The notes under the pieces: model-generated
The model's database searches: none
What the model saw: only the letters and a program-made list of their open reading frames with translations
Told to the model about the DNA's origin: nothing
Position numbers and translations under genes: made by a program
From: Harriotta raleighana
Lineage: Eukaryota
Length of the DNA stretch: 64,000 nucleotides
Direction of reading: 5' to 3'
Assembly (NCBI GenBank): GCA_050575255.1
Contig: JBNZDD010013686.1
Span: 372,001 to 436,000, forward strand
Shown: in pieces, positions 36,663 through 53,562 of the stretch
How the letters are laid out: each line of letters starts with the position of its first letter
Numbering within the stretch: the first letter of the stretch is position 1

Positions 36663-36760
36663 GTATGTTTTGAACTGAGGGTGTCTGTACCCAGAGTTCA
36701 GCGGGAGCGCCTGCGCAGTGTGGGGCTGTTCCATCTGTCATGGCGGCGTCTCTCTTGTCC
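36661..36760 (+). promoter_or_regulatory. Core promoter of the SUCLA2-like gene with an NRF1-like site
   Basis: GCGCCTGCGCA at 36707-36717 is an NRF1-type motif, typical of nuclear genes for mitochondrial proteins, 23 nt before ATGGCGGCG. Confidence 0.5.
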
Positions 36761-39700
36761 AGGATCACATTGGGGTCAACCGGCAGGACCGCGGCCTGTA
36801 GGGTAGGTAGGAAACCGAGAGCTCAGCGTTTGGGGGGAGCAGTTCCTTCCTCATCACTAACTCACCAACCATCTGATTAACTGACCTCGGGGAGGGAATC
36901 CTTGTGCGGTGTTTGACTCCCTTGTTGGGGTCTCGGCGGCCTCCTGTGGTGGGTCAGGATAGTGTGGAGAGAAGTGAGGACAGAGTCACTGGACCAGTGG
37001 CCGGGAGCCGGAGACTGATATGTTGACAGTTTACTTCAGGTCGATCTTATTCCAGTTTGAATTCTCGACCTGGGCGTTCACCTTCCACTGGAGGGACTTT
37101 CAGCCCAGAGTTGTTGTTTTTTTGCCTTTGAATTNTTAACTGACCTCGGGGAGGGAATCCTTGTGCGGTGTTTGACTCCCTTGTTGGGGTCTCTGCGGCC
37201 TCCTGTGGTGGGTCAGGATAGTGTGGAGAGAAGTGAGGACAGAGTCACTGGACCAGTGGCCGGGAGCCGGAGACTAATATGTTGACAGTTTACTTCAGGT
37301 CGATCTTATTCCAGTTTGAATTCTCGACCTGGGCGTTCACCTTCCACTGGAGGGACTTTCAGCCCAGAGTTGTTGTTTTTTTGTCTTTGAATTGAAACCT
37401 GCACCTTATTATTATAGTAAATAATCCTTGCATTTGATGTAGCGCTTGACGACACCTTCGAGATGGGGCTTCAGAGAATATACTGTAAAGCGAATTGGCT
37501 TTGTATTTTGTCAGCGAAACGCGGCAGCCAATTGCGCTCATCNTCTTTGAATTGAAACCTGCACCTTATTATTATAGTAAATAATCCGACACCTTCGAGA
37601 TGGGGCTTCAGAGAATATACTGTAAAGCAAATTGGCTTTGTATTTTGTCAGCGAAACGCGGCAGCCAATTGCGCTCATCGGTGTCCCAACAAACAGATGT
37701 TCACCAATTTGCTGAATCCAAATAAAGAATAGGTGACTGTCGGATGGACTGGATGTACGGACGGACGGGGTGAGAGTGCCTGAGCTTCGACACTAGTGTC
37801 CAAACTTGGAAAACAAGCGTTCCATTATTCAACACTTACACTCCTCCACGCCAGCTGAGAACAAGCCCCACCTAACCCTCAAATGTGAAATAACAAGTGA
37901 TTCAGAAATGAAATTTTGAGTGTAAATAATTATATACTGCATGTTGTAATTAGTCTCATTAGCAGTTAAGTAAAGTAATGTTTAATCATAATATTAAGTA
38001 CCCTGGGACACTACCCCACATGAAGGACGATATATAAATATCAGTTCTTGTTAAATGCAAGATCTTTTTAAATCTATAACATCTCTTTAATTTAAAAAAA
38101 AATGACTTTGTCTATTCCTTCAATGTTTTCAGGAATGTATAATTTTCCCGTTATCTGCTTATTCACCTTATAAATATACTGTACAGTACATTTGGTGTAC
38201 ATTACAGAAAATTCTGCAAGTGCTTTAACATGATACTGCTTTACAAAAAAATTCAAGAACTAGAATTATTACTACAATGAGAACACCATTACAATAACTT
38301 TGGGGTCTGAATATGACAGATTTTTAGGTGACTTAATATTGTAAATAAAATGCAAGGGATAATTATTAAATTTTACCTCCATTCTGTTTGGGGATAATAA
38401 ATATTTCAATATTATGTCTTGCTCAGAGGGATTAATGATTTTTGTGTCTTTTCAAATCATACATTTCATTATACGTTGGTCACTGCTTTTATAGTAGAAG
38501 TCTTATTAGAATCAAAGTTCATTTTCTGGGCTCTACTTTTCGCTTTGAAACAAAGTAAAGTTTGCAAAAAGTGTTGTATAATAGTTTAAGATATTATTTA
38601 ATCACTAATTATATGCTTTTGACAACTGCATTATAAATTTAAGTCACCACAAAATATACAGTCAATTCACTTTACAGTATATTCTGAGAAGTGCTTTGAG
38701 ACGTCTCAAATACGGGATAAGTGCTATATGAAATACAAGGATTATTATTAAAAGAAGTAAATTCGGATTATTTAGTACATAATAATATGCATTATGCCTG
38801 CTTCCAAGAAATGTTATATGTGCTTAACTGAACTTTCAGGTGGAAAAAACATCAAACATGAAAGATTCATATTGCTAGAACAGATAATTGCAACGGTATC
38901 AATTTGGAATGCATGATAAAGTATTATGGATCTTTAGTTTGTTTTAACCAAGAACAGTATATTCCGAAGGAAACATTTTACTTGGTTAATTCAAGTTTGA
39001 AGGAATATGATAGTGTAATTTATTTTTAGAAATAAAAACATTTGAGGATTAAGTGAGGCTTGTTCTCAGCAGGGGTTTTTATTGAAGGCTCATTACAAAA
39101 TGCTGTACTTGGTTGACCCCTCACTACCTCTCCAATCTCTTCACTTCTAATCTACTCTAATCTCTAATCTTCTACTTTTAATCTCTCCTGCCTCCGCTCA
39201 ACAGGTACCGGCCTCCTGCTCGATCCTCGCATCCTCCACCCCACCATTGGATGTAAATTGTTGTTGACAATACCAGGAACTAAAACAACAACCACAACAA
39301 CTTGGATTTATATAGCGCCCTCCACGCCAGATGGCATCTCAGAGCGCTTCACAAAACAGATCCCGGGGCCGAGCCAGGGGGAGGGGGAAACAGGTTCCAA
39401 AACAAATTCAGAATGGAGACAAGCACTTTAATGTCAGTTATTAATGGGGCTGAAGTTGGAAGATTCAGGGTAAACTGAGCCAAATTAAATTAAGCCAATC
39501 TCTGGTTGAAGATGTACAGTTTTTGAGAGATCAGATTTAGAGTATCACTTTAATCTTGTTTCCCCTGTATTTAATCTTGGTAAAACAATAGATGTTTAGC
39601 CTGTGGTAGAGCATCGCTTTTATTTGTATCCACATTAGATTTTTGAAATGCCATGTGTTATTTTTCCTTCTAGATTTTTGGGGCGTCTTTAAATCTTGGG

Positions 39701-51700: not shown

Positions 51701-53562
51701 TTTGGGGTGAAAAAGTTATTTTTCTATCGGCAACAAAATCACATCATGAAAATTGTTGTACCTGGAAAAACAGGCTGCCTTTATAACTTTAAAGGCTTTC
51801 AGAAAATGCACTTATCAGATCTGCTGTATTTATGAATTCTATAGCTTCTTATCACTGTTGCATTTTGTTTTATGCACCACTGTAAATACTGGAAAAAAAT
51901 CTTATGAATTCAGCACCAATGAAAATGTATTGATTAACTATCATTAATAACTAAGAAATTAGTAAGAGCTTAAGAGCAGTAGGCAATGTTTTTTAAGCAG
52001 ATGATTGTGTTAGTGAACATTTCTAGCTTTCCTTACCCTTGTTTACTGTTTTGAGTTGTCACAATTCTATTTTATGATAATGTCACAGTTCTGCAGTTCA
52101 AATGTGCGTCAGTGAAAGCAAACAGAATATGTTTGAGGACTCTCCAGACACCACAAAATGGACGCAGACTAATTTTAGCCTAGTTTGTTACTTTGCAGAT
52201 TACCGTATTCTGTAAGAATTCTGGAAAATAGAAAAATGTATTGGGCCGATAAGTGTTCTGCCACGTTTCAAGTTAAAGTCAATGAAAGTGGCAACAGTAC
52301 TTTCTGTTAAATATTCCCCCAATCTGAGGAAAAGAATACACAGTGGAACAACAAGAAACAAAATTACATTTGTAGAGATGAAAGTTGAATTTGAAGCCTG
52401 ATTCAACCTACTATTTTAGATCTCTTTCCCTTCTTGACTATTATGGTGATGAGCTCTTACTGGCAGAAGGCTACATATTTCTTTGTTTCAGTAATGCTGC
52501 ATAACAGATATGATAACTTGATTTTATGCCTCATTCATAGGTTCAGGCGATTCTGGTGAACATATTTGGTGGCATTATGCGTTGTGATATAATTGCTAAA
52601 GGAATCATTGCTGCTGTTTCAGATCTGCATCTGAAAATTCCCATTGTTGTCCGGTTACAAGGCAAGATCATTAAAAATATCTGACTATTCATTTTTATTG
52701 TGTACTGATTTGCAACTAGTAATATCTGCAAACAGGGGTTAATAGTTGAATTAATGAGTAGTGGGTTTTAGACTTTCATTTCCCTGGCCTTATTCTCACT
52801 CAGAGTTTTGGGGATATACAACTAATAATAATAATATAATAATAATAATCCTTGCATTTGAGCACATTTACTGTTTGCATTTATCAAAGTGCTTCACAGG
52901 ATTTACTGTAGAGTTTTGCTAACTGATTTTAAACAGCTCTTAAGTAATATTAAAAGTAAGCCCTTACATATTTAGCTTACATGTCCAACGTTTTAACAAA
53001 TATTTTTAATCAATATATTGATTTCTATCAAATTTCTTTGATTCAGGGACACGTGTTGATGATGCAAAGGCATTGATTGCCTCAAGCAGCCTGAAGATCC
53101 TTGCTTGTGATGATTTGGGAGATGCTGCTCGAATGGTTAGTTCAATATTCACTTCACTGGGTACACTTTGAAATTGTACATTGGGGTAGCACCAATATGC
53201 TGCATAGAGAAGATAATTTTTATGAGAAGACTTAGGGGAACTTTGTTTTACTGCATAATATATTCACCCGAAAGGTCAGTGGGTTTTTTGTAGCATGGAA
53301 TCATGAAGTAGTTTATATTACTATAAAGTGTTCCCCTGGGCTTAGAGAATAAAAGGTTTGCTCTGAAGGTAGAACTGTTGTGCAATTCAATTTGGATATG
53401 CTTATTTTTAAAGATTATTTCTACCAATTTAATTTGTGCCGTATGAATTTGGTTAACATCTGTGTTTATTCTATTATTTTCTTTCAGGTTGTAAAACTTT
53501 CAGAAATAGTTTCACTGGCAAAAGAGGCACACATCAATGTGAACTTCCAACTGCCAATTTAA
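36740..53562 (+). CDS. SUCLA2: Succinate-CoA ligase [ADP-forming] beta subunit, mitochondrial (SUCLA2 or SUCLA2-like paralogue); 11 exons, 451 aa
   Basis: Exons: 36740-36802, 39674-39845, 40898-40997, 45133-45295, 46170-46298, 47012-47150, 47230-47391, 47709-47851, 52541-52661, 53047-53135, 53488-53562 (1356 nt). Motifs: Arg/Ser-rich presequence [99 protein letters not shown]-terminus VNFQLPI*. These are SUCLA2-type rather than SUCLG2-type. AATAAA at ~53634. One-to-one orthology to human SUCLA2 is uncertain. Confidence 0.95.
36877..37679. repeat. Two tandem near-identical duplications, each split by a single N (probable assembly artefact)
   Basis: 36877-37134 vs 37136-37393 (N at 37135) and 37384-37542 vs 37544-37679 (N at 37543). 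The copies differ by a few substitutions and one ~23-nt indel. Confidence 0.9.
42301..42640 (+). mobile_element. Full-length tRNA/Deu SINE with a duplicated 5' end
   Basis: TGTGGAGTCCTGTAGCTTAGT occurs twice in tandem at the head, followed by the standard core and tail. Confidence 0.88.
44365..44901. mobile_element. MITE related to family A
   Basis: TA-CAGTAAAAGCCCGTTTATGC ... CGGATACATGGACTTTTACTG-TA. Shares the internal motif AATATTCTGTTATTATTTAGTCTATTATTAATATGGTAT with family A. Confidence 0.75.
45405..45740 (-). mobile_element. Degenerate L2 fragment
   Basis: Minus-strand IGRQAF and LWNSI-like motifs. Confidence 0.55.
48085..48300. mobile_element. Partial MITE family A end
   Basis: TA-CAATAAAAGCCCGTTTATCCGTGACTCGATGAAC...AAAAAAGTCCC...CGGAAGTTATCC, homologous to 4951-5060. 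Confidence 0.65.
48372..48655 (+). mobile_element. tRNA/Deu SINE
   Basis: Recurrent SINE core and tail. Confidence 0.82.
49801..50185. mobile_element. MITE related to family A
   Basis: TA-CAGTAAAACCTTGTTCATC ... GATAAACGGGGTTTTACTG-TA with the shared internal AT motif near 50032-50070. Confidence 0.75.
50505..50830 (+). mobile_element. L2 LINE 3' fragment
   Basis: [19 protein letters not shown]...[15 protein letters not shown]...[10 protein letters not shown] motifs. Confidence 0.78.

What the first reader, a model, noticed from the sequence alone, without database searches (positions are those of the whole stretch)
36740..53562. Possible second ATP-type succinyl-CoA ligase beta gene: a SUCLA2 ohnologue on the FNDC3C-TAF9B paralogon
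Seen: an intact 11-exon SUCLA2-type gene directly downstream of an FNDC3 gene and intron-containing TAF9, all on one strand. Known: mammalian SUCLA2 lies on 13q14 with ITM2B, CYSLTR2 and FNDC3A. The paralogous Xq21 block holds ITM2A, CYSLTR1, FNDC3C(P), TAF9B and PGK1 and has no SUCLA gene. Inference: this gene is the whole-genome-duplication sister of SUCLA2, kept in this lineage and lost in mammals. That would mean either three beta subunits for this TCA enzyme here, or hidden paralogy among genes named sucla2. It has ATP-type features (Pro in [16 protein letters not shown]) but differs in the presequence and in parts of the ATP-grasp region (for example [23 protein letters not shown]).
Basis: partly seen in the sequence, partly recalled or inferred. 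Interest (0 to 1): 0.75.

Follow-up and report, generated by a model that had tools for sequence, protein, structure and literature searches.

The report
Second SUCLA2 gene in cartilaginous fishes
Chimaeras, sharks and rays carry an intact second copy of the gene for the ATP-making subunit of a Krebs-cycle enzyme, most likely left over from the last vertebrate genome doubling and apparently lost in bony vertebrates; this kind of retention is well known, but this case seems undescribed.

Summary
The gene is real: 11 exons at 36740-53562 (+), 451 aa, no internal stop, downstream of FNDC3 and a seven-exon TAF9. The window looks holocephalan (95.9% to one Callorhinchus SUCLA2). Four chondrichthyan species each have two SUCLA2 proteins, 78-80% alike. 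They form clades A (this gene) and B, each spanning chimaeras and elasmobranchs; 0 of 104 bony-vertebrate rows fall in A. The neighbouring FNDC3 is not FNDC3A (AU p about 1e-40). Copy A shares a chromosome with the FNDC3C-type gene in 3 of 3 species, copy B with FNDC3A in 3 of 3. Skate supplementary tables put Sucla2-1 beside Taf9 on the 1-beta chromosome and Sucla2-2 near Med4/Rb1 on 1-alpha. This is therefore most likely the 2R beta ohnologue of SUCLA2. The SUCLA2 tree alone leaves the deep split unresolved; synteny carries the case. The protein keeps ATP-type and catalytic residues, with 11 clade-fixed changes. Specificity, expression and SUCLG2 presence were not tested. No paper describing it was found, though both copies are in public annotations.

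The parts
36740..36802 (+). SUCLA2-beta-copy exon 1 (ATG; first 21 aa of the predicted mitochondrial presequence)
   Evidence: N-terminus aligns to elasmobranch copy A from residue 1
39674..39845 (+). exon 2 (rest of presequence; start of mature chain; Pro60 = mature Pro20)
40898..40997 (+). exon 3 (Lys86 and Gly-Arg-Gly 93-95 of the ATP-grasp domain)
45133..45295 (+). exon 4 (nucleotide-site linker ERRYP, 147-151)
46170..46298 (+). exon 5
47012..47150 (+). exon 6 (holds 3 of the 11 clade-fixed changes, including Gly to Asp at 215; also Glu244, Asn246)
47230..47391 (+). exon 7 (Asp260; clade-fixed Asn to Thr at 264)
47709..47851 (+). exon 8 (CoA-ligase domain start, residues 311-314 conserved)
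52541..52661 (+). exon 9, followed by a GC donor
53047..53135 (+). exon 10
53488..53562 (+). exon 11 with TAA stop
53634..53639 (+). candidate polyadenylation hexamer, the only one found between the stop and 55500
30404..33706 (+). TAF9, 7 coding exons, 253 aa (intron-containing, TAF9B-type by recalled exon structure); synteny marker
   Evidence: Taf9 next to Sucla2-1 in skate
5..24711 (+). FNDC3C-type gene, 25 coding exons, 1201 aa from the ATG at 5; synteny marker
35708..36660 (.). 35-bp x 27.4 minisatellite ending about 80 bp upstream of the ATG (putative promoter region; role unknown)

Best explanation
This is the beta-subgenome copy of SUCLA2 from the second vertebrate whole-genome duplication (2R). 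It sits on the FNDC3C-TAF9-LRCH2-ITM2A paralogon; its alpha sister (copy B, orthologue of bony-vertebrate SUCLA2) sits with FNDC3A-MED4-RB1. Chondrichthyans kept both copies; bony vertebrates appear to have lost this one. Shown: intact gene, two old clades, paralogon placement, conserved residues. Inferred mechanism: the precursor is imported into mitochondria through a roughly 40-residue presequence. It pairs with the alpha subunit SUCLG1 and supplies the ADP/ATP-binding ATP-grasp domain for succinyl-CoA + ADP + Pi = succinate + CoA + ATP. The chemistry is most likely the same as copy B's. The two copies were probably kept by dividing tissues or stages of expression, with possible modest kinetic tuning; this last step is untested.
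For: Two copies per species in Callorhinchus, Pristiophorus, Pristis and Carcharodon, 78.4-79.9% alike in the three pairs computed. Clades A and B each have 98-100 support and each contain chimaera plus elasmobranchs. FNDC3: shark FNDC3A groups with tetrapod FNDC3A (100/100); AU rejects a shark-lineage FNDC3 duplication (p 4.8e-41) and window-type with tetrapod FNDC3A (p 4.6e-40). Contig-length matches: A with FNDC3C-type same 3 of 3, A with FNDC3A 0 of 3, B with FNDC3A 3 of 3, B with FNDC3C-type 0 of 3, tetrapod SUCLA2 with FNDC3A 2 of 2. Skate (PMC10115646 SI Table 10): Sucla2-1 at Leri_12C 37.04 Mb, Taf9 37.02, Lrch2 36.38, Atrx-1 52.92, Itm2a 54.97; Sucla2-2 at Leri_13C 29.77, Med4 33.00, Rb1-2 33.04, Rcbtb2 33.27, Setdb2 33.62. 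SI Table 3 lists LER13 as 1-alpha and LER12 as 1-beta. Lamprey-rooted trees give (A,(B, bony)) (82/73; 90). 229 of 236 near-invariant columns are kept, and Pro20 is present. Pristis copy A scores 746-749 bits on the ADP-forming chains against 438 on the GDP-forming chains.
Against: The SUCLA2 tree does not resolve the split. The mixture-model tree puts A with Latimeria (49/75) and B inside ray-finned fishes (89/92). AU rejects neither A+B (p 0.339, 0.184), nor B+lamprey (0.351, 0.301), nor A+ray-finned fishes (0.222). In Anguilla, SUCLA2 and an FNDC3C-type gene share one contig length (1 of 5 bony SUCLA2/FNDC3C comparisons). Skate Sucla2-2 is 3.2 Mb from Med4, not adjacent. The skate copies were assigned by position and name, not by sequence. 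The FNDC3C label rests on one named row (Xenopus fndc3c.L), with no FNDC3B outgroup. Residue 20 does not by itself fix nucleotide choice (PMC2440562). Loss in bony vertebrates rests on the best 120 of 8000 hits plus 47 exon hits.
Confidence: 0.85

Rival explanations
1. The gene was duplicated at DNA level in the chondrichthyan stem, and the new copy happened to land beside TAF9/FNDC3C.
For: AU does not reject A+B as one clade (p 0.339; 0.184). No bony-vertebrate row falls in A (0 of 104).
Against: A and B are sisters in 0 of 4 trees. The copy would have had to move with all introns into exactly the sister paralogon, 3 kb from TAF9 and close to FNDC3C and LRCH2.
Confidence: 0.07
2. Reciprocal loss (hidden paralogy): both copies survived into bony vertebrates, and some lineage such as ray-finned fishes or coelacanth kept the beta copy as its only 'sucla2'.
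For: Anguilla SUCLA2 and an FNDC3C-type gene share a contig length, with locus tags about 194 genes apart. Latimeria carries 13 A-type and 9 B-type states at 26 diagnostic columns and joins A weakly. AU does not reject A+ray-finned fishes (p 0.222).
Against: Ray-finned rows group with B or with B+tetrapods. Two amphibians have SUCLA2 with FNDC3A. Latimeria shows none of the six A-fixed derived states visible for it (positions 72, 116, 162, 215, 230, 242). Large eel chromosomes may be fusions (recalled).
Confidence: 0.07
3. This is the ordinary single SUCLA2 orthologue moved by rearrangement, or a decaying pseudogene.
For: One clade-A protein (Narcine) is named without '-like'. No expression data exist for this locus.
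Against: A second copy exists in four species and sits with FNDC3A. Chimaera-to-elasmobranch identity is 88.8-90.3% for A against 83.5-85.9% for B. Both skate copies appear as H3K4me3 promoter anchors in fin HiChIP.
Confidence: 0.01

Closest known systems
SUCLA2 (succinate-CoA ligase ADP-forming beta; PDB 6G4Q, 9SWJ)
   Same: ATP-grasp plus CoA-ligase domains; ungapped alignment of the mature chain (using Pristis copy A); Pro20 and the ER(R/K)YP linker; 11 coding exons (human exon number recalled).
   Different: Different paralogon; about 79-82% identical to bony-vertebrate SUCLA2; shorter presequence (451 aa against 463 in mammals); 11 clade-fixed substitutions, notably Gly175Asp (Gly in 108 of 108 other rows) and Asn224Thr (mature numbering).
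SUCLG2 (GDP-forming beta; PDB 2FP4, 6WCV)
   Same: Same fold and family; shares Asp at mature position 122 with copy A.
   Different: 438 bits against 746-749; Gln20 rather than Pro20; different linker; lacks the C-terminal extension.
Ohnologues kept in chondrichthyans and lost in bony fishes (19 cases counted in PMC10115646, e.g. wnt6b and cspg5 among those named as differentially retained)
   Same: Same pattern of differential retention after 2R.
   Different: This is a core mitochondrial metabolic enzyme rather than a signalling or matrix gene. I could not see the list of 19, so Sucla2 may or may not be on it.
Squamate 'SUCLA2-like' duplicates
   Same: A second SUCLA2-type protein in one vertebrate group.
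   Different: They form their own fast-evolving clade inside amniote SUCLA2 (8 rows, 100), so they are a separate and later duplication.

Membership tests
Succinyl-CoA synthetase beta subunit | ATP-grasp_2 plus Ligase_CoA domains; TIGR01016 above cut-off | tested here: met
   Window exons hit both Pfam families. Clade-A proteins P0001 and P0005 score 456 and 437 against a cut-off of 375.55.
Succinyl-CoA synthetase beta subunit | Conserved nucleotide, metal and phosphate-site residues (mature K46, G53-R54-G55, E107, E114, E204, N206, D220, 271-274, 328-330; their roles are recalled) | tested here: met
   All present; numbering fixed by the ungapped alignment to 2FP4.
ATP-type (SUCLA2) subfamily | Closer to ADP-forming than to GDP-forming chains; Pro at mature position 20 | tested here: met
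ATP-type (SUCLA2) subfamily | Measured ADP/ATP specificity with SUCLG1 | not testable with these tools
   Needs an enzyme assay.
ATP-type (SUCLA2) subfamily | Mitochondrial presequence | tested here: inconclusive
   First 40 aa have 4 Arg/Lys, 1 acidic and 7 Ser/Thr residues, with Arg two residues before the mature start; no dedicated predictor was run.
One-to-one orthologue of bony-vertebrate SUCLA2 | Lies with FNDC3A/MED4/RB1 | tested here: not met
   Copy B does; copy A lies with FNDC3C-type/TAF9.
2R ohnologue | Both copies on alpha/beta sister segments, amid other paralogue pairs | tested here: met
   Skate LER12 = 1-beta and LER13 = 1-alpha (the table marks some equivalences with question marks); FNDC3A/FNDC3C-type pair; Itm2a and Lrch2 on 12C.
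2R ohnologue | Gene tree dates the split after cyclostomes and before the shark/bony-fish divergence | tested here: inconclusive
   Best topology in 2 of 4 trees; not rejected under the mixture model (p 0.362); the alternatives are not rejected either.
2R ohnologue | DNA-level duplicate with introns (not a retrocopy) | tested here: met
   10 introns.

The most novel reading that the evidence does not exclude
Cartilaginous fishes run a third, functionally distinct succinyl-CoA ligase beta isoform. Copy A fixed 11 changes early (copy B only 3), including two at sites shared even with the GTP-type enzyme, and then became more constrained than copy B. It may have altered kinetics, oligomer state or tissue use, perhaps linked to the ketone-based fuel use of these fishes (recalled; the link is untested).
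Probability: 0.25. Interest if true: 0.65.

Novelty: new member of a known kind. Interest (0 to 1): 0.42.

Why it matters
It shows that the jawed-vertebrate ancestor most likely had two ATP-type beta genes for the Krebs cycle's only substrate-level phosphorylation step, and that chondrichthyans have kept both for over 400 million years (date recalled). It warns that database names do not track orthology here: the true orthologue is often labelled '-like', and one beta copy is not. It also offers a natural pair for testing why a housekeeping mitochondrial duplicate is retained, and whether sites invariant in human SUCLA2 tolerate change.

Tried and rejected
Wasp outgroup: the root was pulled into the fast squamate '-like' rows (quick tree), so I treated it as long-branch attraction and rooted on lamprey. 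Squamate '-like' proteins as the ohnologue: rejected, they nest in amniote SUCLA2. Diagnostic-residue count for bony vertebrates: uninformative. Downstream gene search: 83 of 89 stop-to-stop frames of 45 aa or more in 53560-64000 were scanned against Pfam; only one sub-threshold QLQ hit, no PGK or 7TM hit; short exons would be missed. Cluster-member look-up could not be made, so accessions and further species stayed unchecked. AlphaFold model of Pristis copy A: pLDDT 72, pTM 0.54; it only places Asp175 just after a helix and Thr224 in a strand; no fold search was run. Literature: 10 searches, judged from listings, found no paper on a duplicated chondrichthyan SUCLA2. Supplement searches for SUCLA2 gave nothing in PMC8302630 (file 4 not searched), PMC8455134 (files 13-24 not searched) and PMC11406177; PMC11979771's supplement was unreadable. 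The Paroedura FNDC3 row was classed by name only, and the Xenopus comparison mixes L and S subgenomes.
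Full report
Observation. The gene is in the sequence as described. Eleven exons between 36740 and 53562 on + splice to 1356 nt, 451 aa and a stop; all acceptors are AG, nine donors are GT and the intron-9 donor is GC. Six of 8 single exons tested hit Pfam ATP-grasp_2 or Ligase_CoA. Upstream on the same strand lie a 7-exon TAF9 (30404-33706, 253 aa) and a 25-exon FNDC3 gene (5-24711). 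TAF9 ends 3.0 kb before the SUCL ATG. No further gene was detected in the 10.4 kb downstream: 83 of 89 frames scanned gave no credible Pfam hit.

Whose gene. The exon-6 search returned 47 hits among 100 candidates. The top seven are chondrichthyan proteins at 83-89%; the next best is 70%. The window protein is 95.9% identical over 412 mature columns to one Callorhinchus SUCLA2 and 81.1% to the other, so the window is most likely from a holocephalan.

Two old copies. A full-length search (best 120 of 8000 listed) together shows two SUCLA2 proteins each in Callorhinchus, Pristiophorus, Pristis and Carcharodon. In all four trees they form clade A (window, Callorhinchus, rays, sharks) and clade B, each with 98-100 support, so the duplication predates the chimaera-elasmobranch split. 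The largest tree held the window plus 125 of 141 hits; 15 unnamed rows and one wasp were dropped. In it 0 of 104 bony-vertebrate rows fall in A.

The gene tree alone is not decisive. Rooted on lamprey, (82/73; 90) give A as sister to B plus bony vertebrates, the shape expected for 2R. The mixture-model tree differs: A joins Latimeria at 49/75 and B nests among ray-finned fishes at 89/92. One search, rooted on a wasp, leaves the deep nodes open. A and B are sisters in none of the four trees, but AU tests reject neither that grouping (p 0.339, 0.184), nor B+lamprey (0.351, 0.301), nor A+ray-finned fishes (0.222), nor the 2R shape (0.362).

Synteny carries the case. The window's FNDC3 groups with the shark '3A-like' proteins, outside a clade in which shark FNDC3A joins tetrapod FNDC3A (100/100), and on the side holding Xenopus fndc3c.L. 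AU rejects both a shark-lineage FNDC3 duplication (p 4.8e-41) and grouping the window type with tetrapod FNDC3A (p 4.6e-40). No FNDC3B outgroup was available, and the FNDC3C label rests on that single named row. I used the listed contig length as a chromosome fingerprint within a species. Copy A shares it with the FNDC3C-type gene in 3 of 3 cases and with FNDC3A in 0 of 3. Copy B shares it with FNDC3A in 3 of 3 and with the FNDC3C type in 0 of 3. Amphibian SUCLA2 shares it with FNDC3A in 2 of 2. Bony-vertebrate SUCLA2 shares it with the FNDC3C type in 1 of 5; the exception is Anguilla, which I cannot explain beyond a possible chromosome fusion.

Independent support from the skate genome paper (PMC10115646; I saw passages, section 7, part 1 of supplementary file 2 and row searches; that file is cut and file 1 is unreadable). 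SI Table 10 places Sucla2-1 at Leri_12C 37.04 Mb beside Taf9 (37.02), near Lrch2 (36.38), with Atrx-1 (52.92) and Itm2a (54.97) on the same chromosome. Sucla2-2 is at Leri_13C 29.77 Mb with Med4, Rb1-2, Rcbtb2, Setdb2 and Rcbtb1 at 33.0-33.8 Mb. SI Table 3 lists LER13 under 1-alpha and LER12 under 1-beta of one ancestral group. The Taf9-Sucla2 adjacency thus appears conserved between skate and this window, and the two copies sit on 2R alpha/beta sisters. Which skate gene is clade A is inferred from position, not sequence. Both skate genes appear as H3K4me3 promoter anchors in embryonic fin HiChIP, modest evidence that both are active.

How it works. The mature chain of Pristis copy A aligns without gaps to the ADP-forming chains (746-749 bits) and to the pig GDP-forming chain (438 bits); window residue n equals mature position n-40. 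The window keeps 229 of 236 near-invariant columns, including K46, G53-R54-G55, E107, E114, E204, N206 and D220, whose roles I recall from the structural literature. It has Pro20. [quoted passage not shown] The first 40 residues look like a presequence. The likeliest function is therefore an ATP-type beta subunit pairing with SUCLG1 in the matrix; this is inferred, not shown. Clade A has 11 fixed changes at otherwise conserved sites, against 3 in clade B. The clearest are Gly175Asp (Gly in 108 of 108 other rows) and Asn224Thr; both ancestral residues are shared with the GTP-type enzyme. A modest model places the first just after a helix and the second in a strand. Since the chimaera-elasmobranch split A has changed less than B (88.8-90.3% against 83.5-85.9% identity). 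That argues against a pseudogene and fits early divergence followed by constraint. Partitioned expression is my best guess for retention; I have no tissue data.

Novelty. Both copies are in public annotations, mostly as 'SUCLA2-like', and the skate annotation names Sucla2-1 and Sucla2-2. Ten literature searches, judged from listings, found no paper discussing them. The library lacks most subscription journals, and several supplements were unreadable or only partly searched. The skate paper counts 19 ohnologues kept in chondrichthyans and lost in bony fishes; I could not see that list, and Sucla2 may be on it. The pattern is known, so this is a new member of a known kind. Unchecked: SUCLG2 in these fishes, the second copy in the window's own genome, and loss in basal bony fishes at genome level.

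Verdict. Observation confirmed; interpretation supported and narrowed to the 2R beta copy (confidence 0.85); interest 0.42.

Noticed in passing
window 12488-12955 (+): Degenerate 18S rRNA fragment (119 bits, model positions 611-1116) in an intron of the FNDC3C-type gene.
   Followed up: no
window e.g. 11728-12043, 29409-29708, 42322-42640, 48384-48654, 62044-62298: Dispersed repeat of about 300 bp with up to 12 self-hits; two copies carry a tRNA-like head, so probably a SINE.
   Followed up: partly
window 35708-36660: 35-bp minisatellite, 27.4 copies at 99% identity, ending about 80 bp before the SUCL start codon.
   Followed up: no
window 36877-37679: Two single-N sites (37135, 37543) flanked by near-identical 258, 93 and 44 bp duplicates in SUCL intron 1; probably an assembly artefact, exons unaffected.
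   Followed up: partly
window 52662 and 17868: GC donors: SUCL intron 9 and, in my model, FNDC3 intron 15.
   Followed up: no
proteins P0125, P0127, P0128, P0131, P0134, P0136, P0137, P0140: Fast-evolving squamate SUCLA2-like clade nested in amniote SUCLA2; Elgaria has two on one contig, and one of them has changes in otherwise invariant motifs.
   Followed up: partly
proteins P0037 and P0253: Anguilla SUCLA2 and an FNDC3C-type gene share a contig length, with locus tags about 194 genes apart; unexplained.
   Followed up: partly
protein P0006: The Narcine clade-A protein is named without '-like', and no Narcine clade-B protein appeared among the listed hits; possible reciprocal loss or a sampling gap.
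   Followed up: no
skate SI Tables 5 and 10 (PMC10115646): Names Rb1-2, Atrx-1 and Atrx-2 hint at further duplicates in the same paralogon.
   Followed up: no
proteins P0002, P0003: Carcharodon and Cetorhinus copy-A isoform X2 models are 401 aa, 54 shorter than the 455-aa form, the length of one 162-nt exon.
   Followed up: no
proteins P0142-P0261: An intact FNDC3C-type gene is widespread in sharks, amphibians, reptiles, birds and ray-finned fishes but is mostly named 'FNDC3A' or '3A-like'.
   Followed up: partly
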